Origin: Deltaproteobacteria bacterium
GTDB taxonomy: Bacteria; Desulfobacterota; GWC2-55-46
DNA length: 64,000 bases
Reading direction: 5' to 3'
NCBI GenBank assembly: GCA_016182655.1
Contig: JACPGB010000024.1
Span: forward strand, 30,549 to 94,548
The notes beneath the pieces were generated by a model. That model worked only from the letters and a program-made list of their open reading frames with translations, was not told the origin of the DNA and did not search any database. The translations under genes were made by a program, and so were the position numbers. This document shows positions 5,039 through 51,240 of the stretch, in pieces; position 1 is the stretch's first letter, and each line of letters begins with the position of its first letter.

Positions 5039-5899
5039 GTGGAAGGACTCCTTCGGGCCCAGAGGGGCATGGCGAAGACCCTCGCGGGCTCTATCATTTT
5101 CCATGCAGTCATCATCTCAGCCGGGCTGTTCCTCTTCGAGGCCGGCTCGAAGAGGGATTTTTTTACGCCGGTCTATACGGTAGAGATCATCGCCCCCTCG
5201 TCCGTAAGCGGCCCGGCGTCGACCCCTGAGGTCGCCGAGGCCCCGGTGGCGGCGGAAGCAATCGAAGAAAAGGGGCCTGCAAAGGAAGAAAAAAAGGCCG
5301 AGGCCAGGACCGAAAAGGTCAGGGTAAAGGAGAGCGCGTCAGTATCCGAGGCCTTGAAGAAGGTCGAGGAGAGGGTCAGGAAAAAGACCGAGGAGGCCTC
5401 TGTCTCATCCAGGATAGAGGAGATAAAAAAGAGGCAGGAAGAGCGCGCCCGCGAGACCGGCGGAAGGCTCTCGGAATTAAAAAAAGAGCTCGGGTCCAAG
5501 GCAGACAAGGCCGGGCCTGCGCCGTCGGCAAACGACTCCAAAAGCATCGCCAAATCCGCCAAAGGGCCTGCGTCAGGGGCGGCGACGCCAACGGGGGGCG
5601 GCAATCTCAAATCCAGATACCCTGCCTATTACAGCATCATCCACGACCGGATCAAGGATAACTGGCTCTATCCGGAAGGTTTCGATTACAAGAAGATATC
5701 CGTCATAGTCTCGATAAAAATAGACCGTAGCGGCTCTCTCCTCGAGTCCATCCTCGAGGAGAGCTCAGGGAACAAGAGGTTCGACGAATCCCTCATGAAC
5801 GCGATACAAAAGGCCTCGCCGTTCCCGCCGCTCCCGCACGAGTTCGAGGGGAAGTACCTGGAGACCGGCCTCAGGTTCTGCCCGGGATGCCCCGAATAG
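5039..5899 (+). CDS. tolA: TolA (TonB-C-terminal-like domain, Lys/Glu/Ala-rich linker)
   Basis: N-terminal TM segment, a long KEEKKAEARTEK-type charged helix and a C-terminal TonB/TolA-like domain. Position is between tolR and tolB. Confidence 0.7.
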   Translation: MEGLLRAQRGMAKTLAGSIIFHAVIISAGLFLFEAGSKRDFFTPVYTVEIIAPSSVSGPASTPEVAEAPVAAEAIEEKGPAKEEKKAEARTEKVRVKESASVSEALKKVEERVRKKTEEASVSSRIEEIKKRQEERARETGGRLSELKKELGSKADKAGPAPSANDSKSIAKSAKGPASGAATPTGGGNLKSRYPAYYSIIHDRIKDNWLYPEGFDYKKISVIVSIKIDRSGSLLESILEESSGNKRFDESLMNAIQKASPFPPLPHEFEGKYLETGLRFCPGCPE

Positions 5900-5940
5900 G
5901 GCGCGCAAAAAAATCCGTCTTACATGCCTGAAAGGTATAA

Positions 5941-7260
5941 ATGATCAAAAAGACCATAGCTTTTTTATTTGCCATTTTTTTGCTCCTGCCCTTTGGGGCC
6001 GAGGCCAAGGTCTACATAGACCTGGCCGCCCCCCAGGCAAAGAGGCTCCCTATCGCCATACAGGATTTTAAATTCCTCGGCGACGAATCGAAGGCAAAAG
6101 ACCCTTCCGTGGCAAATATAAGCGCGGAGCTCGCCGACACGCTTAGGTCCGACATAAGGTTCTCGGGCCTCTTCAATATAATCGAAAAAGACGCCTACCT
6201 CGAAGACGCCGCAAAGTCGAATCTCACCGACGACAAAATAGACTTCCGCCTCTGGAGGGCCATAGGGGCCGACACCCTCATAAAGGGCGGCTTTTCAATT
6301 GAAAAGGAAAAGCTCACGGTCGAGGTGCGCCTCTTCGACTCCATAACCGAAAAACAGGTCCTCGGGAAAAAGTACATAGGCTCGGTTGCGAACCCGCGGA
6401 GAGTCATGCACTACTTCGCCGACAATCTATACGAGGAGTTGACCGGCCGGAAGGGCATCTTCACGACCCGCATCATGTTCGTCTCGAACAGGGACGGGAA
6501 CAAGGAGATATTTGTCGCCGACTACGACGGCAGGAACGCCGTAAAGGTGACGCGGAATAAGTCCATTAACCTCTCCCCCCAGTGGTCGCCTGACGGCAAG
6601 AAGGCACTCTACGTCTCTTACAAGAAGGGCTGGCCCGCCCTCTTTCAGCTCGACCTGACGAACGGAGCGGACTCGGGCGTGTCCGCAAAACCCGGCATAA
6701 ACATAGGCGGCAGGTACTCGCCCGACGGCACCAGGGTGGCGCTTACCTTGAGCGGGGATAAATCCCCCGAGCTCTACACCCTCGACCTTTCAACGGGCGA
6801 ATACAAACGGCTCACCGACAACTACGGCATAGACGTCTCTCCCGCGTGGTCGCCGGACTCTTCCCGCATCGCGTATGTGTCAGATGTCGCTGGAAACCCT
6901 CATATTTTCATGTTAGAATTGTCGTCCGGGACCTCAAGGCGCATGACATTCGAGGGCAAGTACAACTCAAGCCCGGCCTGGTCCCCCGACGGTAGCAGGA
7001 TCGCCTTCTCCCGCTCGGATTCCGGGAGGTTCAATATCTGGGTGATGAACGCAGACGGTAGCAACTCTACCCAGCTCACCTTCGACGGCAACGACAGAAG
7101 CCCGTCATGGTCGCCTGACGGAAGGTATCTTATCTACAGCTCCACTGCAAAAGGGGTCTCGTCGCTCCGCATAGTGCGCTCCGACGGGACGGGGTCCATG
7201 AAGATAGAGACCGGGACGGGGAACGAAAAATCCCCGGTCTGGTCGCCTTATTTTCAATAG
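5941..7260 (+). CDS. tolB: TolB periplasmic beta-propeller protein
   Basis: Signal peptide, then repeated WSPDG beta-propeller blades (LSPQWSPDG, VSPAWSPDS, SSPAWSPDG, RSPSWSPDG). Confidence 0.9.
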   Translation: MIKKTIAFLFAIFLLLPFGAEAKVYIDLAAPQAKRLPIAIQDFKFLGDESKAKDPSVANISAELADTLRSDIRFSGLFNIIEKDAYLEDAAKSNLTDDKIDFRLWRAIGADTLIKGGFSIEKEKLTVEVRLFDSITEKQVLGKKYIGSVANPRRVMHYFADNLYEELTGRKGIFTTRIMFVSNRDGNKEIFVADYDGRNAVKVTRNKSINLSPQWSPDGKKALYVSYKKGWPALFQLDLTNGADSGVSAKPGINIGGRYSPDGTRVALTLSGDKSPELYTLDLSTGEYKRLTDNYGIDVSPAWSPDSSRIAYVSDVAGNPHIFMLELSSGTSRRMTFEGKYNSSPAWSPDGSRIAFSRSDSGRFNIWVMNADGSNSTQLTFDGNDRSPSWSPDGRYLIYSSTAKGVSSLRIVRSDGTGSMKIETGTGNEKSPVWSPYFQ

Positions 7261-9904: not shown

Positions 9905-10032
9905 CCGCCCCCTTGCCAGTCTCATCGCGCTGAATCCTTTTGAATTCAAAATTACTAAAAACATTATACTGATACCCGAGCAAAACTTCCCAAAATCTAC
10001 TAAGAGCAAGTGTAATGTTTTAAAAATAAGAA

Positions 10033-10066
10033 AGGGAGGGGGCTAAAAAACCCCCTCCCTTTCCTT
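10033..10066. terminator. Bidirectional intrinsic terminator hairpin (AGGGAGGGGGC-TAAAAAA-CCCCCTCCCT)
   Basis: Perfect GC-rich stem flanked by T and A runs, downstream of the GGDEF gene. Confidence 0.6.
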
Positions 10067-10217
10067 CCTCATGCCTTAACCCATATCGCAAAGGCTTTGA
10101 GTCCGCGCTCGTAAGCGTAGATACGCCTACCGCTACGAGTGGTTATGTAGGCTACAAAAATGAGCTTGTAGCCAGGTCTGCCCTGTCTCATACGGCCCTA
10201 TCCTCCTTTCTTCGAGA

Positions 10218-10296
10218 TAGGGCCTTGACAAGAAATTTCCTAAAGTGCTATAATTTCGGCGTGTGATAGCACTAAGGGCCTTCTTGTCAAGGCCCG
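10218..10296. promoter_or_regulatory. Nested palindrome (GGGCCTTGACAAGAA...TTCTTGTCAAGGCCC) enclosing a consensus sigma70-like TTGACA-18-TATAAT; possible att-like site or promoter
   Basis: 15-bp perfect outer inverted repeat and an inner AGTGCTAT/ATAGCACT repeat. It lies immediately 3' of the tRNA-like gene. Confidence 0.4.
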
Positions 10297-10300
10297 TAAA

Positions 10301-10376
10301 TGGTCCCCCTGCCGGGATTCAAACCCGGAACACAGCGTTTAGTAGGCGCGCGCTCTATTCATTGAGCTACAGGGGG
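10301..10376 (-). tRNA. tRNA-like gene, probably a degenerate tRNA pseudogene
   Basis: 76 nt on the minus strand with a perfect 7-bp acceptor stem (CCCCCTG/CAGGGGG), discriminator A plus CCA, D-stem GCTC/GAGC and T-arm CCGGG-TTTGAAT-CCCGG. The anticodon stem has only 3 Watson-Crick pairs (loop CTACTAA, anticodon ACT), the D-loop lacks GG, and C56 is T. Confidence 0.5.
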
Positions 10377-10422
10377 TAAGTATCAGAAGAAGGCTCTGCC
10401 TGCCAGCAGGGCCTTCTTCTTT

Positions 10423-11130
10423 TTATCCCTTCTTGCGGCTATCCATAAGCTCCTTAAATCCGTCAAACCATTTTGCCTTCACTTCATCTGGCCAAACAGG
10501 ATCAAATTCCGGGAATTTTGCTAACAAGAGCTGTTCCCAAGTTTGAGTGGCTACCTGACTCGATAATGGCTGACTTTCATATGGTTGCGGCGGTGGTGTC
10601 GAAGGTAGCTCAGATTTTGCCTTCGAATTTCTTTCCAAACCGCTCCGTTTGGGCGCACTACGCACGCTTGTTGCCTTTACTTTAATGTGCGGTGACAGCT
10701 CGACCCCCGCCTCCTTGGAAATTGCAACAAAAAAGGCTATGCACTTGCGAACAGTTCCTCCTGTAATGCCTCCAGCATTCTCGAATAGCTCTTGTAAGTG
10801 CTTAGAGGTTATACGCGTGAGGTCAATGTCATTCTCAAACAAAAATGGATACGCTGTTTTGACAATATCGTGAAGATTTTTTACTCTACTCGGCCCCTCG
10901 GAATTAACCAAGTTTTTTAATCCCTCCGTCGGAATTCCATTTGGAGAAATTAAGCCAAGGTATTTAAGCGTAGATAAAAGCTGTGCCTGCGCCGCTCCTG
11001 AAAATGAGCCCATAAGGCTTCGGTCAATACGCGATGGCACGCCCACCTTCAACCTTTCAATAAAATTAGAAAAGGTTTTATAAGGTAAGTACGGTGGGAT
11101 AGATTTTTTTTCTTCTCCGGCTTCTGTCAT
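10423..11130 (-). CDS. Hypothetical protein in the low-GC islet (possibly DUF5343-like)
   Basis: The ORF track gives 10423-11214, but a GGAGGG Shine-Dalgarno sits 6 nt upstream of the ATG at 11130 (MTEAGEEKKSIPPYLPYKTF...). GC is lower than the flanks. No recognisable catalytic motif. Confidence 0.55.
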   Translation of the reverse strand: MTEAGEEKKSIPPYLPYKTFSNFIERLKVGVPSRIDRSLMGSFSGAAQAQLLSTLKYLGLISPNGIPTEGLKNLVNSEGPSRVKNLHDIVKTAYPFLFENDIDLTRITSKHLQELFENAGGITGGTVRKCIAFFVAISKEAGVELSPHIKVKATSVRSAPKRSGLERNSKAKSELPSTPPPQPYESQPLSSQVATQTWEQLLLAKFPEFDPVWPDEVKAKWFDGFKELMDSRKKG

Positions 11131-11150
11131 GGCAACCCTCCGCTCTGTGG

Positions 11151-11200
11151 AATGTCTCATTCCTATTCCATTCCTATTCCATTCCATCTTACTCATTCCA
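11151..11200. repeat. Simple tandem repeat (TATTCCATTCC)n directly upstream of the 10423-11130 gene
   Basis: CATTCC TATTCC ATTCC TATTCC ATTCC ... ATTCC read directly from the sequence; it lies in the promoter and 5' leader of the gene. Confidence 0.6.
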
Positions 11201-11291
11201 CATACCCGAGTCAAGGGGAAATTATCCCGAGTCCGATTTTTTTTGAAAATGCAATTTAATTCTTATAAAATATAAGAAAAACGAGGTTTAT

Positions 11292-11501
11292 ATGAAGGGT
11301 TATCTTGTTATTCTTAGGGATTTTGGAGGGGAACCGATATTAATGCGTATATGGGATTATGATTAGAGCGCTGTTTATGTTACCAAAGTTTCTATTGAAA
11401 ATAAGGGGAATGTGCTCGTATCAATCGGTTTTCCATATGATGATGTATTTAGACATGAACCAGAATTGGCTAAAACAATAGAACAAAAAAAATGGGATTG
11501 A
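11292..11501 (+). pseudogene. Small ORF interrupted by an in-frame amber codon (MKGYLVILRDFGGEPILMRIWDYD*SAVYVTKVSIENKGNVLVSIGFPYDDVFRHEPELAKTIEQKKWD)
   Basis: Both halves are in one frame, split by TAG at 11364-11366. Lies in the AT-rich islet. Function unknown. Confidence 0.25.
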
Positions 11502-11772
11502 GGAAAATTGACTCGATTAGCGTTTTAAGTTTTCTTTCCCCATCTTGTTTTAGCCGCTTTTTGAGCGATTTCTTTACGCTTTTTTGCAGATAGCTTCTCA
11601 GCACGTTGCCGCCCTTTAGTCCTCCCAATCTCCCCAAGGCCACGGCGGCAGGATTCTTTTCTGGCTTACCCTCAGTAGTGTTTTTTTTCTCTTCAGGCTC
11701 TTCTTTTGTAGCTTCTGAGACTATAAAGGAGGCGAGCTTGTTTATATCTGTGATTTTCTTTTTCTTGTCCAT
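11470..11772 (-). pseudogene. Small lysine-rich protein, apparently frameshifted
   Basis: The annotated frame reads ...AAVALGRLGGLKGGNVLRSYLQ.... A +1 shift after GLKGG reads RAEKLSAKKRKEIAQKAAKTRWGKKT*, which restores a conserved C-terminal motif and ends near 11535. Confidence 0.4.
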
Positions 11773-11853
11773 GCTTCAAGTATAGAATAACCGCTCAAGC
11801 AAGGAAAATAGAAAGGAAATTCAAAATGACCCACTACCGTCCGGCGAGGACCC

Positions 11854-13023
11854 TTGCCATCCCCTGTCCTTCTGTCTTATAATCCTGAAGATATGTCCAG
11901 TGTCTCCATAACAAGATGCGCCTCCTACGAAACCCAGGAGGCATACAGGGCCATAAAGGAATCGATAGACCTTTTGGGCGGCATGGAGAGGTTCGTCTCA
12001 AGGGGCGAGCGCATACTACTTAAACCCAACCTCCTTGCCGGAAAGCCGCCCGAGACCGCCGTTACGACGCACCCCGAGGTCGTCCGGGCGATCATAAGGC
12101 TTGTGAAAGAGGCGGGCGGCGTACCTATCGTAGGCGATAGCCCCGGGCTCGGAACAGCGTTGAAGGTCGCGGACAAATGCGGCGTGGCCTCCGTATGCAG
12201 GGAAGAGGGTGTTGAGCTTATAGACCTTAAGACCCTGGTCGTCGCCGAGAACCCCGGCGGCCTCACGTTCAAGCGGCTCGAGGTGGCTAAAGAGGCGCTC
12301 GATTGCGACGGCATCATAAACATCCCGAAGCTCAAGACCCACGCCCAGATGTTCCTTACTTTAGGCGTCAAGAACCTCTTCGGGTGCGTACCGGGGAAAT
12401 TGAAACCCCAGTGGCACTTATCCGCGGGTGTGGAGAGCTCTCACTTTGCCGCGATGCTCCTCGACCTCTACTCGTTCCTGAAACCCAGGCTTACAGTGAT
12501 GGACGGCATAGTCGGCATGGAGGGCAACGGCCCCGGCGCTGGCGACCCGAGGGAAATAGGGCTTGTGTTCGCAAGCGCGGACGCCGTTGCGCTCGATACC
12601 GTCGCGACAATAGTCCTCGGGGCCGATCCGCATGACCTCCCCCTCCTCAAGGCCGCCTCGATAAGGGGGCTTAAGACCGATATTAACGGGATAGAGGTGC
12701 TCGGCGAAGAGGTATCAAACGTCAAGGTCCACGGGTTCAAGCTCCCGCCGCTCGTATCGCTCAATTTCGCCGACAGGCTCCCGTACTTTCTGGACAAGAG
12801 GCTCAGGCGCGCGCTCACCTCGCGCCCGTCCGTCGAGCGGGCGAAATGCACGCTCTGCAATATCTGCGTACAGGTCTGCCCCGCCGAGGTAATGGCAAAG
12901 ACCGACGGGATATCAATAGACTACGACAGGTGCATCAGGTGCTACTGTTGCCAGGAGATGTGCCCCGAGGGGGCGATCTCCCCGGTCGACGGGTGGCTTA
13001 AGCGCATCATCCCGGGGTTTTAG
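11854..13023 (+). CDS. DUF362 domain protein with C-terminal 2x[4Fe-4S] ferredoxin domain
   Basis: C-terminus has CTLCNICVQVCP and CIRCYCCQEMCP cluster motifs. The N-terminal ~300 aa is DUF362-like. Start may be the ATG at 11893. Confidence 0.7.
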   Translation: MPSPVLLSYNPEDMSSVSITRCASYETQEAYRAIKESIDLLGGMERFVSRGERILLKPNLLAGKPPETAVTTHPEVVRAIIRLVKEAGGVPIVGDSPGLGTALKVADKCGVASVCREEGVELIDLKTLVVAENPGGLTFKRLEVAKEALDCDGIINIPKLKTHAQMFLTLGVKNLFGCVPGKLKPQWHLSAGVESSHFAAMLLDLYSFLKPRLTVMDGIVGMEGNGPGAGDPREIGLVFASADAVALDTVATIVLGADPHDLPLLKAASIRGLKTDINGIEVLGEEVSNVKVHGFKLPPLVSLNFADRLPYFLDKRLRRALTSRPSVERAKCTLCNICVQVCPAEVMAKTDGISIDYDRCIRCYCCQEMCPEGAISPVDGWLKRIIPGF

Positions 13024-27505: not shown

Positions 27506-27632
27506 GACGCAAAGCGACCGCCATCTCCTTTCCAGGCACGGGAGGCGCTGGCCGTTTCCAGCCAGGCCCTGATCGGCCAATACGCCTTAGGTCTTTAAAA
27601 ACCGTTAGGCCTTATCGGCTCGGAGATGTCAG
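27506..27632 (-). promoter_or_regulatory. Candidate molybdenum-cofactor (Moco) riboswitch in the modABC leader
   Basis: The minus-strand leader contains CUCCGAGCC...GCCUCCCGUGCCUGGAAAGGAG, which I recall as conserved blocks of the Moco RNA motif. It is followed by a terminator. Recognition is from memory. Confidence 0.45.
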
Positions 27633-27681
27633 ATGTTATCTTTTTGAAAGGGTACCACGCCTACGGAGCCGAGTCAACCTC

Positions 27682-43139: not shown

Positions 43140-43208
43140 GGATGCGGATAAAACCTCTCCAATACCCTCACCCTCTTTACCTTCGAAGGATCCGTGAGGC
43201 ATTATCAA

Positions 43209-43405
43209 GGCAGGTCTCCTGACTTACGGGTCATCCTAATCTCCGCAACCTTCCCGGCAATCAGCCAGTGGCTCAACATGCGGATTTCGTATCCGTTTAC
43301 AGTGGCGGGTCCGTTCCCGATTCTCCGGTGGCAGTCGCGGTTCTTCGTGATTGCCACACAGACCACGGGATTCCCTTTTCAAGCCCTTTTGGGGCGCCCT
43401 GATAT
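43209..43405 (-). promoter_or_regulatory. Cobalamin (B12) riboswitch aptamer, with a TTGACA-17-TAATGA promoter at about 43415-43445
   Basis: The minus-strand RNA contains AAAAGGGAAUCCCGUGG, GACCCGCCACUGUAA and the B12 box AGUCAGGAGACCUGCC. Plus-strand ORFs at 43015-43496 are artefacts. Confidence 0.8.
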
Positions 43406-43547
43406 GTGCGTGGTAATCATTACATTTCTAAAAAGCGCGTGTCAAGCAAATACCGGTCCTCGCCGGACGGGCAAAGTTCATATCGAGATGGCCTGATTAC
43501 TCTTTGCTCGTAGCTTCCGAAAAAACCCGCCAACGCCACCCGGATCG

Positions 43548-45320: not shown

Positions 45321-46385
45321 CTAAACCGCGAGGTCGACCTGCTGTATTGTGCCGGGGGCGCCGTTTTCGGCAAGATAGACGCCGGACCTCCTGACCTGGC
45401 CGAGGTCTGTGTTGTCGGCGCTCTTTAAATCAAAGCTTGTCGCGGCATAGCCGAGGTATATCGCGCCCACACCCTGCTCTTTAAGTGGCTTAAGCGCGTC
45501 CTTTGTCCATACAAAAAGGTCGTTAAAGACCGCGTCGTTCTCGTCTATCCACGAATTCTTGTCGGTGTCATAGGCCGAGAGCTCCTTGAACCCGTTCCCG
45601 GAGGACGGCCCGAAGAGCTCGCTTCCGTTATTCACTCTTCCGTCGCCGTTCTTGTCTATCGCCAGGAATCCGGAGCCCGGCGCGGCAAAGGAGATATTCT
45701 CCTCGCCCCCGTCGGAATCGAGGTCGAACGCGAACTTCATCGACGTAAGCTCAGCCGCTCTCCCGCCGAAATTGATGACGAGCGGGTCGACGCGCCTGGC
45801 GTCGCCTGCGCGCAAGTTTACGGTCTCTTCGGTGATGGAGGCCCTCTGCATGGTGAGTTCGAGCGAGAAACTTAATTCCTGCCCGTCGGCGGTCCTTATG
45901 ACGCCTTCGGCGCTGAAAGAGGTCTCTTCTATTTCGGCGTGAATGGCGCGAGAGTCGTACTCGAGCCCCCAACCATCGCGTCCGTCTGTAGCGTCAGCAA
46001 GCGCCTCCCCGGTCTTTTTTATATCAGCCGAAGGCTCCTTATCGACAGTCATCACCTTTATCTTCCTGCCTGACAAGGCCTCGATGAGGAGCTTCCTTAT
46101 GAAGGTGTCGTGGTCTACCCCGCCGTCTATCTCTATCTCTATCTCTTTTGCTCCCAGATACCGCTTACCCTGCCCTTTTATCGAGGCGAGGCGCGCCCTC
46201 GCCTCATCCGACAGCACGACCCTGTCTCCGGGCCTTGCGCCCGGCACGGCGTCAGGCGCCGGCCTCTCGTCCCCGACCCAGGCATTGAGCTTCTCGCTTT
46301 TCGCATCGCGCTCCACAAATGAGCGCGCCTCGGAAAAGAGTATGTTCGAGTCCGCTATGCGCATAAGAATATCCTTATTAGTCAT
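45321..46385 (-). CDS. Hypothetical protein with EF-hand/dockerin-like Ca-binding loops
   Basis: DLDSDGGEENISF, AIDKNGDGRVNNGSELFG and AYDTDKNSWIDEND loops. No signal peptide. Confidence 0.45.
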   Translation of the reverse strand: MTNKDILMRIADSNILFSEARSFVERDAKSEKLNAWVGDERPAPDAVPGARPGDRVVLSDEARARLASIKGQGKRYLGAKEIEIEIDGGVDHDTFIRKLLIEALSGRKIKVMTVDKEPSADIKKTGEALADATDGRDGWGLEYDSRAIHAEIEETSFSAEGVIRTADGQELSFSLELTMQRASITEETVNLRAGDARRVDPLVINFGGRAAELTSMKFAFDLDSDGGEENISFAAPGSGFLAIDKNGDGRVNNGSELFGPSSGNGFKELSAYDTDKNSWIDENDAVFNDLFVWTKDALKPLKEQGVGAIYLGYAATSFDLKSADNTDLGQVRRSGVYLAENGAPGTIQQVDLAV

Positions 46386-46877: not shown

Positions 46878-48236
46878 TCAGAAGGCCTTGATGGGTATTG
46901 AGACCGTCGCCTGCATATCCGGCGCGTCTGCGGTTATGCCGATCCCGAGCGATACGTCGAGCGAGACCTTTCTTGAAAGTATATAAGAGGCCCCTACCCT
47001 GAGCATACCGACGGTAAGGTTCGTCCCCGGAACATCCTCTCCCTGGAGCGTCGTCTCTCCGGTAAACCTCTGGTCCCACCCGAAGTTTATAGACGCATCG
47101 GGGTTCAGCGACAACCCCATGCCGAGCTGGAACCCGGCGGTATCTCCGGGGTCTATCCGCCCCGAGGTCTTGTGCGCGGGGAGGTTCGCGGTGTACGAAA
47201 ACCCGGCGTAGAGCGCGAGCGGGTCCCGGAGCTTGAGCATCGTCGCGGTCGCCTGTATGCCGTTAAAGCCCGTGCCGAGCGCAAGGTCGTCGTCCGTTAT
47301 GCCGAACGGGCTTTTCCCGGTCGTCGTCTTCCACCGGAGGCCCGTAAGCAGGTCCGGGAACCAACCCTTCTCCTTTAATGCCTGCCATGTGAGCCCGGCC
47401 TCGATGTCGCCGAAGCCGGTCGTCGAGTGTTTCGTCTCGACATTCTCGGTTGTGACCTTTTTTTCGTTTGCGTGGCTGTAAGGGACGTAGACCTCGGCCT
47501 GGAGGTCCCTGGGGAGCCCGAGCCGGAACGTCAGCGACGGCATATAGGTGTCCCTCCTTACCCGTTCGGAAGTTATGTCGCCGACGACGAGTATCGGGAG
47601 GATCGTGAAGCCGTCGACGATGACCTCTTCCGAGGACGAATGTATGTAGGTAAAGCCGGGCGAGACTTCGAGGGACCAGGGAGCAAGGAGCAGACCGCCC
47701 TTTTCTATGACCGTCCTTTCCAGCGCGGTACGGGCCGCGTCTTCGTCGGCGGACGAGGCCCGCTCCGGCGTTATCGCGCCGGCCTTTTGGGCGTTACGGA
47801 GGCCGTCGACCTCGAGCTCAAGCATCTCTATCCTTCTTTTAAGCTCCTCGGCCTCCCTTTCCCTTTGCCAGAGGATATGGGCGGGCGGCATCCTGAGCCC
47901 CTCGTCCGAGAGCGTCTCGTCGATCGGTTCCGTTGCAGGGGCCGCCTCCGGCACAAGCACCGTCTCGCTTTCCGATACCTGCTCCGATACGGGCTCGGCA
48001 TCAAGCGCCGGTTCAGGCTCGCTGTCCGTCTCGACGCCCTCGGGTCCGCGCTCTGATACGGGCTCCGCCTCTTCAGGGGCGTAGCCGGCCTCTTCCTGCG
48101 AATGGACCGTCTCTTCCGTTACGCCATCGTCAACCGAAGCCTCTTCCGAGAGAGCTACAGCCGGTAAAGCCGCGAGTAAAACGGAGAGGAGTACCGCGAT
48201 AAGCGAAAAAAAGTATGCTGTTTTCTTAAGGGCCAT
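46878..48236 (-). CDS. Outer-membrane beta-barrel with N-terminal acidic linker and coiled coil; FapF-like amyloid secretion channel (tentative)
   Basis: Signal peptide, Glu/Pro/Val-rich linker, coiled coil REREAEELKRRIEMLELEVDGLRNAQKA, barrel strands and C-terminal ...IPIKAF. The architecture matches FapF. Confidence 0.5.
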   Translation of the reverse strand: MALKKTAYFFSLIAVLLSVLLAALPAVALSEEASVDDGVTEETVHSQEEAGYAPEEAEPVSERGPEGVETDSEPEPALDAEPVSEQVSESETVLVPEAAPATEPIDETLSDEGLRMPPAHILWQREREAEELKRRIEMLELEVDGLRNAQKAGAITPERASSADEDAARTALERTVIEKGGLLLAPWSLEVSPGFTYIHSSSEEVIVDGFTILPILVVGDITSERVRRDTYMPSLTFRLGLPRDLQAEVYVPYSHANEKKVTTENVETKHSTTGFGDIEAGLTWQALKEKGWFPDLLTGLRWKTTTGKSPFGITDDDLALGTGFNGIQATATMLKLRDPLALYAGFSYTANLPAHKTSGRIDPGDTAGFQLGMGLSLNPDASINFGWDQRFTGETTLQGEDVPGTNLTVGMLRVGASYILSRKVSLDVSLGIGITADAPDMQATVSIPIKAF

Positions 48237-48969
48237 GCCTTGTCGGTGGGTCGGGCCTTATGCCGGATACCGCCCTTCCCAGGGCGGCGCCGTCGGTTAC
48301 GAGGAAGTCTTCCGCGCCAGGGTCCAGCCCGCCGGAGATCTCAGTCCCCTCTTTTTTCAGTACGAAACCTATGCCGTTTTTCCAGATCTCCAGAAACTTG
48401 TTCTTCCGCATGGTGACCGTTCCGTAGACCGGGTCCGAGAAGAGGACGCGGTCGCCGTACACCCCCCTGAACACCACGAAGTGGTCGTAATTTTTTATGT
48501 TAACGGGGATTATTGCCGGGGTTTTGAACCCTGTCAAGTCGTCGAGCGTAAGTTCCGCGTACCCTGCGCCCTTGTACCCGTACCTGTCCGAGAATTTTTT
48601 GAGGTCCATGAGAGAGAAGCCGCCCCTCGCCCTGACCTTCAAGGGGTCCGTGGTCTTCAATATCCCGATGATTATCTCGCTTTCCGGGACAGGGTCGTTG
48701 TAATGATACGTAAGGAGCGTGGAGAGCGCGGCGGCCCCGCAGCTCATGTCCCACTTCTGCTTAACGACGTTCGTCTGCCGGAGTTCCTGGAACGAGCGCA
48801 CCCCGGCCTCGGCCCTTGTCCCCCCTATTCCGAGCGGCAGTACGCCGCCGTCCGCCGCTTGCGCGGCCGACAGGACGATCAAGACTATCAAGGCGCATCT
48901 TGCGAGCAATCTTTGCCTCCTTGTAAAAAAAGGCCATGCCGGGGCGGGAAGCCCGGCATGGCCTCGCAT
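48226..48969 (-). CDS. Periplasmic papain-like peptidase, family C39 (FapD-like)
   Basis: Hydrophobic N-terminal signal or anchor. The catalytic Cys context QKWDMSCGAAALSTLLTYHY is typical of C39 bacteriocin-processing peptidase domains. Confidence 0.7.
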   Translation of the reverse strand: MRGHAGLPAPAWPFFTRRQRLLARCALIVLIVLSAAQAADGGVLPLGIGGTRAEAGVRSFQELRQTNVVKQKWDMSCGAAALSTLLTYHYNDPVPESEIIIGILKTTDPLKVRARGGFSLMDLKKFSDRYGYKGAGYAELTLDDLTGFKTPAIIPVNIKNYDHFVVFRGVYGDRVLFSDPVYGTVTMRKNKFLEIWKNGIGFVLKKEGTEISGGLDPGAEDFLVTDGAALGRAVSGIRPDPPTRHGP

Positions 48970-49899
48970 TTAGCGGGTCTGATACAGGTTGTTGTACTGG
49001 GAGGGGGCCGAGATCGTCTGGGCCGTCGCGGCGCCGCCGTTGACCGAGATCGAGCCGAGCGCGATGTTCACGCCGTTCAACGCGAGGCTCGACGAGGCGT
49101 TCGTCACGTTGAGCGCGGAAGCGCCCTGGAACGAATCACAGCCAAGGGTAACGTCGTCCTCCCTCGCGACCTCGAGGTCGGAGGAGTCGCCTGTGATGTA
49201 GGTGGCGACCGCGTAATCGAGCTCGGAGGTGGTCTCGCTTGACGAGCACGACTCGGCGGTCTCGAACGAGTTGTTCATCGCGGAGGAGCATGAAGCGCCC
49301 GCCGCCGTTACGCAGGCCGCGCCCCTGTCGGCGGTAGCGTAGCCTACGTCATAGACCTCGGCGTAGATCGTATTGTCCGTCCCATTTCCGGCCGCGGCCG
49401 CGCCCCTGCCGTAGTTGGCGTCGAGCGAGGCGGAATCGAGCGAGAACGAGAAGCCGTTCTCATAGGACAGCCCGTTTATGGCGATGCTCAGCGTCGCCGG
49501 GTCCACCCCCGCCGAGCTGTGCGTCACATCCGAGTAGCTGCTTGCTCTCTCGCCATAGTGATCGCCGTGAGTGATGTACCCCGCGTCGGCGTTTGCATAC
49601 TGCTCCATCGTGTTGTTCTGCTGGAAGTCTCCCGCGTAGCCGAGGAAGTTGACGCCGTTCGCGGCGAGGCTCTCCGCCGTATTCGAGATGTTCAGCGCCT
49701 GCGAGTCGGCAAGGGAGGAGCCGCTTAACGCCACTTCCCCTGTTTCGCTTATCGACGCCGAGGCGTCATTTCCTATTATGGCGCTCCCGGCGACGACGCC
49801 GTCGAGATCCCCGTCAGTCAGCGCCTTCGGGGCCGCGGAGGCCTGGGAGGCCCAGGCGAGGACCACGATGCCGAGAGACGCGACAATGAATCTTTTCAT
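48970..49899 (-). CDS. Secreted Ser/Ala/Asn/Gly-rich repeat protein, paralog 1 (candidate amyloid/fibre subunit)
   Basis: Signal peptide MKRFIVASLGIVVLAWASQASA, then ALTDGDLDGVVAGS, then repeats such as ALNISNTAESLAANGVNFLG / ALNVTNASSSLALNGVNIALG. C-terminus QYNNLYQTR. Confidence 0.55.
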   Translation of the reverse strand: MKRFIVASLGIVVLAWASQASAAPKALTDGDLDGVVAGSAIIGNDASASISETGEVALSGSSLADSQALNISNTAESLAANGVNFLGYAGDFQQNNTMEQYANADAGYITHGDHYGERASSYSDVTHSSAGVDPATLSIAINGLSYENGFSFSLDSASLDANYGRGAAAAGNGTDNTIYAEVYDVGYATADRGAACVTAAGASCSSAMNNSFETAESCSSSETTSELDYAVATYITGDSSDLEVAREDDVTLGCDSFQGASALNVTNASSSLALNGVNIALGSISVNGGAATAQTISAPSQYNNLYQTR

Positions 49900-49937: not shown

Positions 49938-50336
49938 TCAGAGACTGCCCGAGAGGTTCAACTGTTGCAGCGAGCCGACGCTTGAGTTGACGTTGATGTT
50001 GAGGTTCAATAGGACCTGTATCGCAGAGTCCACCGCGGTGATGTTGACGAGTGAGCTAAGGCCGCTCTGCGCGTTGCCGCTTATCGCGATCGACCCGAGC
50101 TTATCCGGCGCGCCCATGAGAAGGTCGAGCGAGCCGTCGCCCGAAACGTCAAAGTCGTCTCCCGCCTTGCTGAAGCTGAAGTACATGGTCGAGTCGACGA
50201 ACTCCGTGTTGACCGAGCCCGCCGCGACAGTCTCCATCTCTGCGTCCGATAGCGCCCTCCCGGCCATCGCGCCGCCGGGGTACAGGAGCGAGGCGGCGGC
50301 GAGTACCGAGAGGGCGAGCATCGCTTTTTTCTTCAT
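49938..50336 (-). CDS. Small secreted protein related to the repeat proteins
   Basis: Start MKKKAML at about 50336 with a GGAGGAGG RBS. Signal peptide, then ALSDAEMETVAAGS, then LSSLVNITAVDSAI and Asn/Leu repeats. Confidence 0.45.
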   Translation of the reverse strand: MKKKAMLALSVLAAASLLYPGGAMAGRALSDAEMETVAAGSVNTEFVDSTMYFSFSKAGDDFDVSGDGSLDLLMGAPDKLGSIAISGNAQSGLSSLVNITAVDSAIQVLLNLNINVNSSVGSLQQLNLSGSL

Positions 50337-50355
50337 ACCCCTCCTCCCGCCGCTC

Positions 50356-51240
50356 TTAGCGGTACTGGTAGACATTGTTGACCTGGCTTACGCAGTAGGA
50401 GGAGCCGCCCCACGCGACGTTCACCGCGTTCGCAACCGCGCTTGACGCCGCGTTCACGACATTAAAGGCCGATATGCCCTGCATGGCGTTGCCGGAAAGG
50501 CTCACGCTGTTGTTCGTCTCGACATCGAGCTCCGAGCCGTCGCCGGTCATGTAGGTCGCGTAGGCGTCCTGGATCTGGGATGTGGTCGAGTGCTCCTCGT
50601 TCTGGTTCTCGTTCTGATAATCGGTGTTAAGCGCCGCCGAGCAGGAAGAGCCCGCGCCGGTAACGCACGCCACCCCCTTGTCGGCCGAGGCGTTGCCTAC
50701 GTCGTAGAGCTCGGTATAGGCGTTGTCCCCGGCTACGGCCGAACCCCTGCCGTAGTTGGCGTCAAGGGAGGCCGAGTCGAGCGAGAATGAGAAGCCGTCC
50801 TCAAGCGTCACCCCGTTTATGGCGATGTTGAGGCTTGCGGGCTCGACCCCTGCCGAGCTGTGGAAGGTCTCGGAGGTATGATTGCTATTGGACGCATACG
50901 AGTCCTGGTGGTTCCAGTTCGATACGTAAGCCTGCTCGTCCTGCGTGATATTGTTGGCCTGGTCTATGACCGAGCTCGATCCGATGATGTTAACACCGTT
51001 GGCGACGAGGCTCTCGGAGGCGTTCGTGAAGTTCAGGGCCGAGGCGTCGGAGGCCGCATAGCCGGAGAGGTCCACGGTCCCGGTCGTCTGTATCGAGGCC
51101 GAGGAATCAAAGCCCACTATGGCGCTGCCTGCGGCGATGGAATCGAGCTCTCCGTCGGTAAGGGCCTTCGGGGCCGCGGACGCGTCAAACGCGAACGCCA
51201 AGAGGAACACTCCCATTGAGGCAAGGACCAATCTTTTCAT
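50356..51240 (-). CDS. Secreted Ser/Ala/Asn/Gly-rich repeat protein, paralog 2
   Basis: Start MKRLVLASMGV at 51238-51240 with an AAGGAG RBS. Has ALTDGELDSIAAGS, ALNFTNASESLVANGVNIIG, ISAFNVVNAASSAVANAVNVAWG and C-terminal VNNVYQYR. About half identical to paralog 1. Confidence 0.55.
   Translation of the reverse strand: MKRLVLASMGVFLLAFAFDASAAPKALTDGELDSIAAGSAIVGFDSSASIQTTGTVDLSGYAASDASALNFTNASESLVANGVNIIGSSSVIDQANNITQDEQAYVSNWNHQDSYASNSNHTSETFHSSAGVEPASLNIAINGVTLEDGFSFSLDSASLDANYGRGSAVAGDNAYTELYDVGNASADKGVACVTGAGSSCSAALNTDYQNENQNEEHSTTSQIQDAYATYMTGDGSELDVETNNSVSLSGNAMQGISAFNVVNAASSAVANAVNVAWGGSSYCVSQVNNVYQYR

What the first reader, a model, noticed from the sequence alone, without database searches (positions are those of the whole stretch)
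49938..51240. Conserved double-glycine-like leader motif placed after a Sec signal peptide in all three secreted repeat proteins
After a canonical AxA signal-peptidase site, the three proteins share ALTDGELDSIAAGS, ALTDGDLDGVVAGS and ALSDAEMETVAAGS. This fits the LSxxELxxIxGG leader consensus cleaved by C39 peptidases. A C39 enzyme is encoded in the same operon. A Sec signal combined with a GG-type leader suggests a two-step processing route in the periplasm rather than ABC-coupled export.
Basis: seen in the sequence. Interest (0 to 1): 0.65.

Follow-up and report, generated by a model that had tools for sequence, protein, structure and literature searches.

The report
Sec signal plus glycine-type leader tag
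Three secreted fibre-like proteins carry, right after their ordinary export signal, a second short tag resembling the leaders cut by C39 proteases; the same tag marks the cargo of hundreds of related protease-plus-outer-membrane-channel gene clusters, including Pseudomonas FapE, so it gives a testable candidate for a protease target that has been unknown since 2013.

Summary
All three proteins have a Sec signal peptide with an AxA site, followed 3-4 residues later by ALTDGELDSIAAG / ALTDGDLDGVVAG / ALSDAEMETVAAG.

The operon is cargo A, cargo B, cargo C, hairpin, a periplasmic C39 peptidase with Q/C/H/D intact, then a FapF-like outer-membrane barrel. It has no ABC transporter.

In 80 related genome loci, 79 have the barrel gene next to the C39 gene. 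137 upstream genes encode signal peptide + P-[LM]-x-D-x-x-[LM]-D-x-[VI]-T-A-[GA]. All 94 leader-HMM hits at i-E<=0.1 lie upstream of the C39 gene on its strand. Small and large cargo classes share only this N-terminal module.

With Gly at -1, the hydrophobic residues fall at -4, -7 and -12, as in double-glycine leaders, but -2 is Ala. The likely cut is therefore AAG|S. Canonical GG-leader models do not detect the motif significantly.

A leader in the same register follows the signal peptide of genuine Pseudomonas FapE (MNDAELAELRGR|F), of a Photobacterium protein encoded just after a FapD-like C39 gene (LTDDEMSSLRGG|F) and, loosely, of Acinetobacter FilA.

Cleavage is inferred, not shown. The barrel's conserved RGG|LLLP site is a rival or additional target.

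Verdict: a new variant of the Fap/Fil type of secretion system, and of real interest.

The parts
50356..51240 (-). Cargo gene A (294 aa). It has a Sec signal peptide (aa 1-22), a 16-aa leader/propeptide APKALTDGELDSIAAG (aa 23-38) and an S/A/N-rich mature protein. Two copies of an ALNxxNAxxSxxANGVN module are present, and the C-terminus ends in QVNNVYQYR.
   Evidence: An AAAGGAG Shine-Dalgarno sequence precedes the ATG at 51240. The sequence is identical to P0007 (NCBI HYV24_06215). The mature part has only 3 K+R in 256 aa.
51124..51165 (-). Leader motif of gene A, ALTDGELDSIAAGS (aa 26-39). The predicted C39 cut is after Gly38.
   Evidence: 17.7 bits against the family leader HMM.
49938..50336 (-). 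Cargo gene B (132 aa). It has a signal peptide (aa 1-25), the leader GRALSDAEMETVAAG (aa 26-40), a short beta region and the conserved C-terminal motif SGNAQSxLSSLVNIxAVxSxIQVLLNLNINVNS. It is the most conserved cargo of the system.
   Evidence: Homologues were found in 76 of 81 sources, usually directly upstream of the C39 gene. There are 254 clusters at E<=1e-3 among 1.84 billion representatives. No Pfam or NCBIfam family matches.
50214..50255 (-). Leader motif of gene B, ALSDAEMETVAAGS (aa 28-41). The predicted cut is after Gly40.
   Evidence: 17.5 bits. AF2 puts a short helix at aa 31-35, with low confidence.
48970..49899 (-). Cargo gene C (309 aa), a paralogue of gene A (53% identity). 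It has a signal peptide (aa 1-22) and the leader APKALTDGDLDGVVAG (aa 23-38).
49783..49824 (-). Leader motif of gene C, ALTDGDLDGVVAGS (aa 26-39). The predicted cut is after Gly38.
   Evidence: 16.2 bits.
48930..48965 (-). A GC-rich 13-14 bp hairpin followed by U7. It sits immediately after the gene C stop codon and before the C39 ribosome-binding site. It is terminator- or attenuator-like and probably lowers machinery expression relative to cargo.
   Evidence: -38.7 kcal/mol for the 91-nt stretch, z = -3.7. A hairpin of different sequence, without a U tract, sits at the same place in the closest relative L034.
48226..48969 (-). Stand-alone periplasmic C39 cysteine peptidase. The longest ORF is 247 aa. 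The likely true start is TTG at 48909, preceded by AGGAGG, which gives 227 aa and the signal peptide LLARCALIVLIVLSAAQA|ADGG.
   Evidence: Pfam Peptidase_C39 1.1e-16. NCBIfam FapD 2.4e-32 and FilB 6.5e-30, both below their equivalog cut-offs. Q71, C77, H163 and D179 are invariant in 81 of 81 homologues. The PDB profile search finds PCAT1, LahT and ComA peptidase domains.
46878..48236 (-). FapF-like outer-membrane protein (452 aa). It has a signal peptide, an acidic linker, a heptad-like segment I read by eye as a probable coiled coil (no predictor run), and a C-terminal beta-barrel. It overlaps the end of the C39 gene by 11 nt.
   Evidence: NCBIfam FapF 7.1e-25 and FilC 6e-19, both below cut-offs. 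Pfam Phenol_MetA_deg 6.5e-5. It is adjacent to the C39 gene in 79 of 80 loci.
47694..47729 (-). Conserved TALERTVIEKGG|LLLAP segment of the barrel protein (aa 170-181). The family consensus is ALDQALIVRGG|LLLP. It is a second candidate C39 cleavage site, N-terminal of the barrel domain.
   Evidence: (GG in 70 of 77 homologues). It parallels the suggestion made for FapF in PMC5557850.

Best explanation
The motif is a modular leader or propeptide that marks cargo of a Fap/Fil-type two-step secretion system.

Proposed steps:
1. Each cargo protein is exported by Sec, and signal peptidase I cuts at the AxA site. This is predicted from sequence.
2. That cut leaves a 15-16-residue N-terminal leader (APKALTDGELDSIAAG and its two relatives). 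Its hydrophobic residues at -12, -7 and -4 and its small residues at -2 and -1 (Ala-Gly) have the spacing of double-glycine leaders.
3. The co-encoded periplasmic C39 cysteine peptidase binds this leader and removes it, most likely after the Ala-Gly (AAG|S). This is inferred.
4. Recognition or cleavage licenses hand-over of the still unfolded, S/A/N-rich, nearly lysine/arginine-free cargo to the adjacent FapF-like barrel. The cargo is then secreted and assembled into a surface fibre. This is inferred by analogy with Fap and FilA filaments.
5. The leader may also keep the aggregation-prone cargo export-competent in the periplasm.

Gene B is the conserved, FapE-like minor or initiator subunit. 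Genes A and C are lineage-specific major subunits. A hairpin between the cargo genes and the machinery genes probably sets a high cargo-to-machinery expression ratio.
For: Shown here:
- Anatomy of the three N-termini.
- The C39 gene has its own signal peptide and a complete catalytic set in 81 of 81 homologues. The peptidase domains of PCAT1, LahT and ComA are the nearest solved relatives.
- No ABC transporter is in the operon.
- The C39 gene and a FapF-like barrel gene are adjacent in 79 of 80 loci drawn from Acidobacteriota, Desulfobacterota, Gamma- and Alphaproteobacteria, Verrucomicrobia and Myxococcota.
- 137 upstream genes in 76 of 81 sources carry signal peptide + motif, usually one small and one large per locus.
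- All 94 HMM hits at i-E<=0.1 are upstream on the C39 strand.
- The logo P-[LM]-x-D-x-x-[LM]-D-x-[VI]-T-A-[G80/A19] loses information right after position 13.
- A profile-profile comparison of small against large cargo aligns only the signal peptide + leader (42 columns, probability 90.9, E 1.1e-6) and stops at AGS.
- 111 of 123 full-length members of the gene B family worldwide have the motif.
- The family leader HMM aligns ProcA (LSDDELEGVA) and ColV (LTLNELDSV) in the register that puts Ala at -2 and Gly at -1.
- Genuine Pseudomonas FapE, in an operon where all six genes pass the NCBIfam equivalog cut-offs, has ...PAYA|SSAFKPIEMNDAELAELRGR|FVMPGR in the same register. FapA, FapB and FapC lack it.
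- A Photobacterium protein encoded just after a FapD-like C39 gene has LTDDEMSSLRGG|F.
- A relaxed five-position pattern occurs 5.6e-5 times per residue in 2.0 M background residues.

From the literature:
- The active-site Cys of FapD is required for secretion.
- FapE is the only Fap protein with N-terminal processing.
- The FapD target is still unresolved (PMC5557850, PMC6173800, PMC12822426).
Against: - No cleavage data exist for any member.
- Position -2 is Ala, not the near-invariant Gly of canonical substrates.
- About 10% of gene B family members have K, R, E or Q at the putative -1 position followed by Gly (VTAKG, VYAEG). The exact scissile bond is therefore uncertain by one residue.
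- The reverse matches to ProcA and ColV are weak (8.5 and 6.3 bits).
- The FapE, FilA and Photobacterium resemblances are pattern-level and post hoc. hhalign against FilA gives probability 1.4%.
- A Cupriavidus Fap-like locus shows no clear motif.
- The barrel protein carries a better-conserved true GG site.
- AF2 models of the cargo were uninformative (pLDDT 60 and 27).
Confidence: 0.6

Rival explanations
1. The motif is a targeting or chaperoning signal that is not cut at that site. It docks unfolded cargo onto the periplasmic part of the FapF-like channel, or onto the C39 protein acting as a receptor. The proteolytic substrate of the C39 enzyme is instead the conserved RGG|LLLP junction of the barrel protein, and cutting there opens or closes the channel.
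For: The barrel has a true Gly-Gly in 70 of 77 homologues, preceded by a conserved segment that looks helix-forming (E-R-x-A-x-x-A-L-D-Q-A-L-I-V-R-G-G). Rouse et al. proposed FapF cleavage at GG/GA motifs and a removed 'FapF secretion targeting sequence' in FapE (PMC5557850). The cargo motif lacks Gly at -2.
Against: The hydrophobic spacing before the barrel's GG (-4, -5, -6, -10) fits the canonical leader less well than the cargo motif does (-4, -7, -12). Information content of the cargo motif collapses exactly after Ala-Gly, as expected at a processing site. The FapE N-terminus is reported as processed (PMC5557850). The two sites are not mutually exclusive.
Confidence: 0.22
2. The motif belongs to the mature subunit. 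It would be an N-terminal helix or strand used for subunit-subunit contacts in the fibre, like the N-terminal extensions of chaperone-usher pilins. On this reading it is conserved for structural reasons and is unrelated to the protease.
For: The motif is always N-terminal and close to the first conserved block of the large cargo (GAIVGNDSSA...). No cleavage data exist.
Against: The motif is shared by cargo classes with otherwise unrelated mature sequences. It is separated from the first mature block by spacers of variable length in homologues such as L006 (ITAGSAAQLSASGGAIVGN). It co-occurs strictly with the C39-barrel pair. It has the register of protease leaders.
Confidence: 0.1
3. The motif is a chance or compositional resemblance, or a canonical cytoplasmic GG leader exported by a PCAT encoded elsewhere, with the apparent signal peptide being irrelevant.
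For: The motif is short, and canonical GG-leader models do not score it significantly.
Against: There are three of three hits in the window and none elsewhere in 64 kb. 94 of 94 hits sit in the expected position across 80 loci. The motif never starts at the N-terminus; its median offset is 29 residues behind a hydrophobic signal peptide. The only C39 gene nearby itself has a signal peptide, and there is no ABC transporter.
Confidence: 0.02

Closest known systems
Fap functional-amyloid system of Pseudomonas (fapABCDEF; FapD = periplasmic C39 peptidase, FapF = trimeric 12-stranded barrel, FapE = processed minor subunit)
   Same: - A Sec-exported stand-alone C39 peptidase sits next to a FapF-type barrel that has an N-terminal periplasmic extension.
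- The cargo is Sec-exported, N/S/G/A-rich, and nearly free of lysine and arginine.
- The best NCBIfam matches of the window's C39 and barrel proteins are FapD and FapF.
- FapE carries a leader in the same register after its signal peptide.
- A conserved GG lies before the barrel, as noted for FapF (PMC5557850).
   Different: - Scores are far below the FapD and FapF equivalog cut-offs (112 against 330 bits; 87.6 against 700 bits).
- There are no FapA, FapB, FapC or FapE homologues and no GNxGNxxAGxxNQQxN repeats.
- The gene order is cargo-cargo-cargo-C39-barrel, not A-B-C-D-E-F.
- Here every cargo has the leader, whereas in Fap only FapE does.
- The leader ends in Ala-Gly rather than Gly-Arg.
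Fil pilus locus of Acinetobacter (filA-F; FilA filament subunit with Pfam DUF6160, FilB C39 peptidase, FilC barrel)
   Same: - The core order is the same: cargo, C39, barrel.
- FilB and FilC are the second-best NCBIfam matches.
- FilA has a signal peptide followed by SMDDAALSAATGQ, which loosely matches the pattern.
- FilA forms real extracellular filaments (PMC10980823, PMC11539960).
   Different: - The FilB and FilC cut-offs are not met.
- The cargo does not match FilA or DUF6160.
- hhalign against FilA is not significant.
- No FilD, FilE or FilF genes are present.
- The FilA motif ends in T-G-Q rather than T-A-G.
Double-glycine leaders of class II bacteriocins, microcins and Nif11/NHLP peptides, cut by the C39 domain of PCAT ABC transporters
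   Same: - A 15-16-residue leader with hydrophobic residues at -12, -7 and -4, an acidic residue near -8, and small residues at -2 and -1.
- A cognate C39 peptidase is encoded alongside.
- The leader is modular and shared by cargo with unrelated mature sequences.
- ProcA (...LSDDELEGVAGG) aligns in register.
   Different: - The leader is preceded by a Sec signal peptide instead of being the extreme N-terminus.
- Position -2 is Ala, not Gly.
- The peptidase is a stand-alone periplasmic protein, not a cytoplasmic domain of an ABC exporter.
- The export partner is an outer-membrane barrel.
- The cargo are 90-700-residue fibre-like proteins, not small peptides.
Curli (type VIII secretion): the N22 targeting segment of CsgA and the CsgG channel
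   Same: Sec-exported unfolded amyloid subunits carry an N-terminal segment that directs them to a dedicated outer-membrane channel. This rests on established knowledge and was not tested here.
   Different: No protease is involved, and N22 is retained in mature CsgA. The channel is an unrelated lipoprotein nonamer.

Membership tests
Peptidase family C39 (the 48226-48969 protein) | Significant match to the C39 profile | tested here: met
   Pfam PF03412: E 1.1e-16, 61.4 bits against a cut-off of 22. The PDB profile search finds PCAT1, LahT and ComA peptidase domains.
Peptidase family C39 (the 48226-48969 protein) | Catalytic Cys, His and Asp plus the oxyanion Gln are present | tested here: met
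   Q71, C77, H163 and D179 are invariant in 81 of 81 homologues.
Double-glycine (GG) leader peptides | Gly at position -2 | tested here: not met
   Ala in 99% of 115 instances and in all three window proteins, in the register where Gly is -1. In the alternative register (Gly at -2, variable residue at -1), the hydrophobic spacing no longer fits.
Double-glycine (GG) leader peptides | Small residue (G/A/S) at -1 | tested here: met
   Gly 80%, Ala 19%. All three window proteins have Gly.
Double-glycine (GG) leader peptides | Hydrophobic residues at -4, -7 and -12 | tested here: met
   [VI] at -4, [LM] at -7 and [LM] at -12 are all near-invariant. The register is confirmed by alignment to ProcA and ColV.
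Double-glycine (GG) leader peptides | The leader is the extreme N-terminus of the precursor, with no Sec signal | tested here: not met
   The motif starts a median of 29 residues from the Met, behind a hydrophobic signal peptide.
Double-glycine (GG) leader peptides | Detected by a profile of canonical leaders | tested here: not met
There are no hits to bacteriocin or NHLP/Nif11 leader models in Pfam or NCBIfam.
Double-glycine (GG) leader peptides | Cognate C39 peptidase fused to an ABC exporter (PCAT) | tested here: not met
   The C39 protein is a stand-alone protein of 227-247 aa with a signal peptide. No ABC transporter is in the operon.
Double-glycine (GG) leader peptides | The leader is actually removed by the C39 enzyme | not testable with these tools
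   This needs an in vitro cleavage assay or N-terminal proteomics.
Fap system (fapABCDEF) | FapD and FapF equivalogs | tested here: not met
   NF058616: 112 bits against a cut-off of 330. NF058560: 87.6 bits against a cut-off of 700. A genuine operon (L087) passes all six models.
Fap system (fapABCDEF) | FapA, FapB, FapC and FapE subunits | tested here: not met
   No NCBIfam hit at E<=0.1 for genes A, B or C.
Fap system (fapABCDEF) | A periplasmic C39 gene adjacent to a barrel gene whose product has an N-terminal periplasmic extension | tested here: met
   The signal peptides and the probable coiled coil are read by eye from the sequence.
Fil pilus system (filABCDEF) | FilA (DUF6160), FilB and FilC at the family cut-offs | tested here: not met
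   FilB: 104 bits against 475. FilC: 68.6 bits against 630. No FilA or DUF6160 hit. A genuine locus (L081) has FilA and FilC-FilE passing their cut-offs, while its filB reads as a split ORF and was not scored.
Fil pilus system (filABCDEF) | Gene order cargo, C39, barrel | tested here: met

The most novel reading that the evidence does not exclude
A Sec signal peptide followed by a glycine-type leader is the general, ancestral address tag of a widespread outer-membrane secretion pathway: a FapD/FilB-type periplasmic C39 peptidase plus a FapF/FilC-type barrel. Removal of the leader by the C39 enzyme is the licensing step for translocation. On this reading:
- The long-sought substrate of Pseudomonas FapD is the MNDAELAELRGR|F leader of FapE.
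- C39 'double-glycine' processing is not confined to cytoplasmic ABC-coupled export. It has a periplasmic branch with its own Ala-Gly / Gly-Arg / Gly-Gly specificity.
- That branch serves hundreds of unannotated fibre systems in at least six phyla.
Probability: 0.5. Interest if true: 0.8.

Novelty: new variant of a known kind. Interest (0 to 1): 0.68.

Why it matters
- **An open question becomes testable.** The substrate and recognition sequence of FapD-type periplasmic C39 peptidases have been open since 2013-2017. A December 2025 review still says FapD is only 'thought to' process FapE and FapF (PMC12822426). This window, with its 80 relatives, supplies a concrete and conserved candidate recognition sequence. 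Every cargo protein has it, and it recurs in the same register in genuine FapE. The question can now be addressed with a peptide-cleavage assay and a few point mutants.
- **Annotation handle.** The tag defines a large, unannotated family of surface-fibre systems. Examples are the gene B family, with 254 clusters at 50% identity and no Pfam or NCBIfam model, and the C39 family, with at least 1210 members. These are common in soil Acidobacteriota and in Desulfobacterota. The tag gives a simple sequence handle for finding their cargo.
- **Broader concept and possible use.** The result extends the idea of double-glycine leaders to a bipartite Sec-plus-leader signal. It also suggests a portable tag for secreting proteins across the Gram-negative outer membrane.

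Tried and rejected
1. **Structure prediction of the cargo.** Gene B gave pLDDT 60, with the conserved C-terminal motif disordered. Gene C gave pLDDT 26.7, which is unusable. I therefore ran no fold search and make no fold claim.
2. **HMM of canonical GG leaders against the loci.** It gave no significant hits, so I do not claim homology to bacteriocin leaders.
3. **hhalign of the small-cargo profile against FilA.** Probability was 1.4%. The FilA resemblance remains a lead only.
4. **FilA in the PDB.** There is no entry, so the mature N-terminus of a related filament could not be read from a structure. The Edman data cited in PMC3498257 are in a paper not held in the library.
5. **tblastn of a FapE fragment against plasmids.** It found nothing. 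The metagenome scan succeeded instead.
6. **Supplementary data of Rouse 2017.** They list FapE peptides only from residue 72 onward. A cut after residue 42 (...LRGR|F) would yield one 6-residue tryptic peptide and one very long one. Their gap is therefore compatible with my site but does not map it.
7. **The 354-aa protein downstream (45321-46385).** I considered it as part of the system and rejected it. It has homologues in only 2 of 81 sources and no signal peptide.
8. **Literature searches.** Searches for a prior description (FapD/FapE/C39/double-glycine/DUF6160/Fil) found none. Subscription journals are not covered.
Full report
**1. The observation**

The minus strand between 46878 and 51240 holds a tightly packed operon.
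- Gene A: 50356-51240, 294 aa from the ATG at 51240.
- Gene B: 49938-50336, 132 aa.
- Gene C: 48970-49899, 309 aa.
- A C39 peptidase gene: 48226-48969.
- An outer-membrane protein gene: 46878-48236, overlapping the C39 gene by 11 nt.

The three N-termini are:
- MKRLVLASMGVFLLAFAFDASA|APKALTDGELDSIAAGS
- MKKKAMLALSVLAAASLLYPGGAMA|GRALSDAEMETVAAGS
- MKRFIVASLGIVVLAWASQASA|APKALTDGDLDGVVAGS

Each has a basic n-region, a hydrophobic core and an AxA-type site. The third protein lies outside the coordinates given.

The signal peptides are read from the sequence and from a crude heuristic, because no dedicated predictor was available.

**2. The neighbours**

The C39 gene matches Pfam Peptidase_C39 (E 1.1e-16). 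Its best NCBIfam matches are FapD (2.4e-32) and FilB (6.5e-30). The barrel protein best matches FapF (7.1e-25) and FilC (6e-19). All four scores are far below the equivalog cut-offs.

FapD and FapF are the periplasmic C39 peptidase and the trimeric channel of the Pseudomonas functional-amyloid system. FilB and FilC are their counterparts in the Acinetobacter Fil pilus locus.

Genes A, B and C match no Pfam or NCBIfam family. Their mature parts are S/A/N/G-rich and acidic, with only 2-5 Lys+Arg each.

A 20-sequence alignment of C39 homologues shows an N-terminal signal peptide in all of them. Q71, C77, H163 and D179 are invariant, and the same four residues are present in 81 of 81 homologues. 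A profile search of the PDB finds the peptidase domains of PCAT1, LahT and ComA.

A strong hairpin with a U7 tail (48930-48965) follows the gene C stop codon. After it come AGGAGG and a TTG at 48909. The C39 protein therefore probably starts there, giving 227 aa and the signal peptide LLARCALIVLIVLSAAQA|ADGG. The closest relative, L034, has a different hairpin at the same place, followed by AGGAGG and ATG.

**3. Is the motif conserved, and is it tied to the protease?**

Gene C has only seven homologues among 5.8 billion proteins. All seven keep the motif, and two read LTDGELDAIAAGG.

The C39 family is large, with at least 1210 hits. An alignment-driven scan of one genome per species returned 80 loci. 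They come from Acidobacteriota (the majority), Geobacteraceae, Syntrophobacteraceae and Desulfobulbaceae, several Gamma- and Alphaproteobacteria, Verrucomicrobia and Anaeromyxobacter.

- In 79 of 80 loci a FapF-like barrel gene follows the C39 gene.
- An untrained regex scan of both strands showed signal peptide + L[ST]DxE[LM]DxVTAG in the gene just upstream of the C39 gene in many loci.
- Two rounds of a 14-column HMM extended this to nearly all loci, including the Acidobacteriaceae, where the motif reads PLNDAAMDRVTAAG or PLSDAALDRVTAGG.
- Of 19,566 six-frame ORF segments, 94 of 94 hits at i-E<=0.1 and 114 of 115 at i-E<=1 are on the C39 strand, 0.7-9 kb upstream of its stop.
- In the 64-kb window the only three hits are genes A, B and C.
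- After start-codon and signal-peptide filtering, 137 proteins in 76 of 81 sources carry the motif. It starts a median of 29 residues from the Met.
- There are typically two such proteins per locus: one of about 135 aa (gene B-like) next to the C39 gene, and one of 300-700 aa (gene A/C-like).

Gene B homologues occur in 76 sources. A full HMMER search of 1.84 billion cluster representatives finds 254 members at E<=1e-3. Of 123 that are full length, 111 have the motif. Most of the rest have recognisable variants such as ELVYGGG or DTVHGG.

**4. Anatomy of the motif**

The logo from 115 distinct instances is P-[L80/M14]-x-D88-x-x-[L55/M45]-D96-x-[V73/I27]-T87-A99-[G80/A19]. Information then collapses: the next position is G36/T15/A15/S15/Q9.

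If the conserved Gly is -1, the hydrophobic residues fall at -12, -7 and -4. That is the spacing of LSxxELxxIxGG. The family HMM aligns two true GG leaders, ProcA (LSDDELEGVA, 8.5 bits) and ColV (LTLNELDSV, 6.3 bits), in exactly that register.

The predicted cut is therefore after Ala-Gly: AAG|S, AAG|S and VAG|S in the window. This leaves propeptides of 15-16 residues.

There are three caveats.
- Position -2 is Ala rather than the hallmark Gly.
- Some family members have VTAKG- or VYAEG-type ends, so the scissile bond is uncertain by one residue.

The resemblance is one of register and context, not demonstrable homology.

**5. Modularity**

A profile-profile comparison of the small-cargo family against the large-cargo family aligns only the signal peptide and leader. 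It covers 42 columns (probability 90.9, E 1.1e-6) and stops at AGS.

In homologues of the large cargo, spacers of variable length separate the motif from the first conserved mature block (ITAGSAAQLSASGGAIVGN in L006 against IAAGSAIVGF here).

All paralogous cargo genes of a locus carry the motif: three in the window and in L006, five in L071. This is the behaviour of a transferable tag, not of a structural element of one fold.

**6. Relation to Fap and Fil**

The literature held here establishes the following.
- FapD is periplasmic, and its catalytic Cys is required for FapC secretion.
- FapE is the only Fap protein lacking N-terminal peptides.
- GG/GA motifs precede the FapF barrel.
- The target 'remains unclear' (PMC5557850; PMC6173800). 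A December 2025 review still says FapD is 'thought to' process FapE and FapF (PMC12822426).

Using FapE peptides from that paper's supplement, I fetched 32 metagenomic fap loci. In L087 all six genes pass the NCBIfam equivalog cut-offs. There FapE begins MMNTSRWLTALCLAASMPAYA|SSAFKPIEMNDAELAELRGR|FVMPGR. That gives M-12, D-10, E-8, L-7, L-4, G-2 and R-1, the same register with Gly-Arg at the end. FapA, FapB and FapC have nothing similar.

A Photobacterium protein encoded directly after a FapD-like C39 gene has ...LASLTDDEMSSLRGG|FVSIN, a textbook GG leader behind a signal peptide.

Acinetobacter FilA (NCBIfam FilA, Pfam DUF6160) has ...SANAMA|MQSMDDAALSAATGQDG. FilA forms abundant extracellular filaments (PMC10980823, PMC11539960).

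A relaxed five-position pattern common to all of these occurs 5.6e-5 times per residue in 2.0 M background residues, or about 0.002 per 40-residue window. These three resemblances are post hoc and individually weak. A Cupriavidus Fap-like locus shows no clear motif.

**7. A second candidate site**

An alignment of 77 barrel homologues shows a conserved E-R-x-A-x-x-A-L-[DE]-[QR]-[AT]-L-[IL]-x-R-G-G|L-L-L-P segment N-terminal of the barrel domain (GG in 70 of 77). In the window it reads TALERTVIEKGG|LLLAP at nt 47694-47729.

This echoes the proposal of Rouse et al. for FapF. It is a rival target, or an additional one.

**8. Mechanism proposed**

1. The cargo is exported by Sec and signal peptidase I cuts it (predicted).
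2. The periplasmic C39 enzyme recognises the leader, which is predicted to form a short helix, and removes it after Ala-Gly (inferred).
3. The unfolded cargo passes to the FapF-like channel and assembles outside the cell (by analogy).

Gene B is the conserved, FapE-like subunit. Genes A and C are lineage-specific major subunits. The hairpin between the cargo and machinery genes fits high cargo and low machinery expression.

I put about 0.85 on the motif being a functional tag coupled to the C39-barrel pair. I put about 0.6 on it being cut by the C39 enzyme at or next to Ala-Gly.

**9. Novelty and verdict**

The two-step periplasmic route is already the working model for Fap, so that part is not new.

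What I could not find described is a conserved glycine-type leader placed behind a Sec signal on the cargo of FapD/FilB-type systems, including FapE itself (ten full-text searches).

The window's system fails the membership tests for Fap, Fil and canonical GG-leader systems, but it works like a hybrid of them. I classify it as a new variant of a known kind, of real interest because it makes a long-open question directly testable.

Noticed in passing
window 48930-48965 (-) and 48909: A strong hairpin with a U7 tail sits right after the gene C stop codon, inside the longest C39 ORF. AGGAGG and a TTG at 48909 follow it. The C39 gene therefore probably starts 60 nt later than the ATG, and the cargo and machinery genes are probably expressed at different levels. 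L034 has a hairpin of different sequence at the same position.
   Followed up: partly
window 47694-47729 (-), barrel protein aa 170-181: The segment ...ALERTVIEKGG|LLLAP is conserved. The family consensus is ALDQALIVRGG|LLLP, with GG in 70 of 77 homologues. It lies just N-terminal of the barrel domain and is a possible second C39 site.
   Followed up: partly
L087 4602-5351 (and L086-L116): Genuine Pseudomonas FapE carries MNDAELAELRGR directly after its signal peptide. This has the register of a double-glycine leader with Gly-Arg at the end. FapA, FapB and FapC do not have it.
   Followed up: partly
L083 8711-9220: A Photobacterium protein encoded just after a FapD-like C39 gene has a signal peptide followed by LTDDEMSSLRGG|F, a textbook GG leader. 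No FapF-like gene follows it in that locus.
   Followed up: no
L081 4665-5513: Acinetobacter FilA (Pfam DUF6160) has SMDDAALSAATGQDG after its signal peptide. The annotated filB in this record appears as two ORFs (5809-6246 and 6256-6648), which suggests a frameshift or a sequencing error.
   Followed up: no
P0144 (1283 aa) and P0285 (1000 aa): Two giant proteins contain 17 and 11 tandem copies of the conserved C-terminal N-rich motif of gene B (LSSLVNIxAVNSxIQVLLNLNIN).
   Followed up: no
window 50356-50385 and 48970-48999 (-); cargo of L004, L006, L009, L012, L013, L024: The large cargo proteins end in a conserved L-x-Q-x-N-x-I-x-Q-x-R tail (QVNNVYQYR and QYNNLYQTR here). Each also carries two copies of an A-L-N-x-x-N-A-x-x-S-x-x-A-N-G-V-N module. 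The role of these features is unknown; they may serve assembly or channel recognition.
   Followed up: no
window 10301-10376 (-): ARAGORN calls a 76-nt tRNA here as tRNA-Ser with anticodon ACU. It lacks the long variable arm of bacterial tRNA-Ser and has A34. It lies in a low-GC island (GC 0.44 at 10001-12000) next to hypothetical genes.
   Followed up: partly
window 43192-43415 (-) and 27509-27637 (-): A cobalamin riboswitch (100.9 bits) and a Moco/tungsten riboswitch (69.1 bits) are present, both above the Rfam gathering scores.
   Followed up: no
window 45321-46385 (-): A 354-aa protein is encoded downstream of the barrel gene. It has several DxDxDG-like loops that may bind calcium and no signal peptide. 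Homologues occur in only 2 of 81 related sources, so it is not part of the conserved system.
   Followed up: partly
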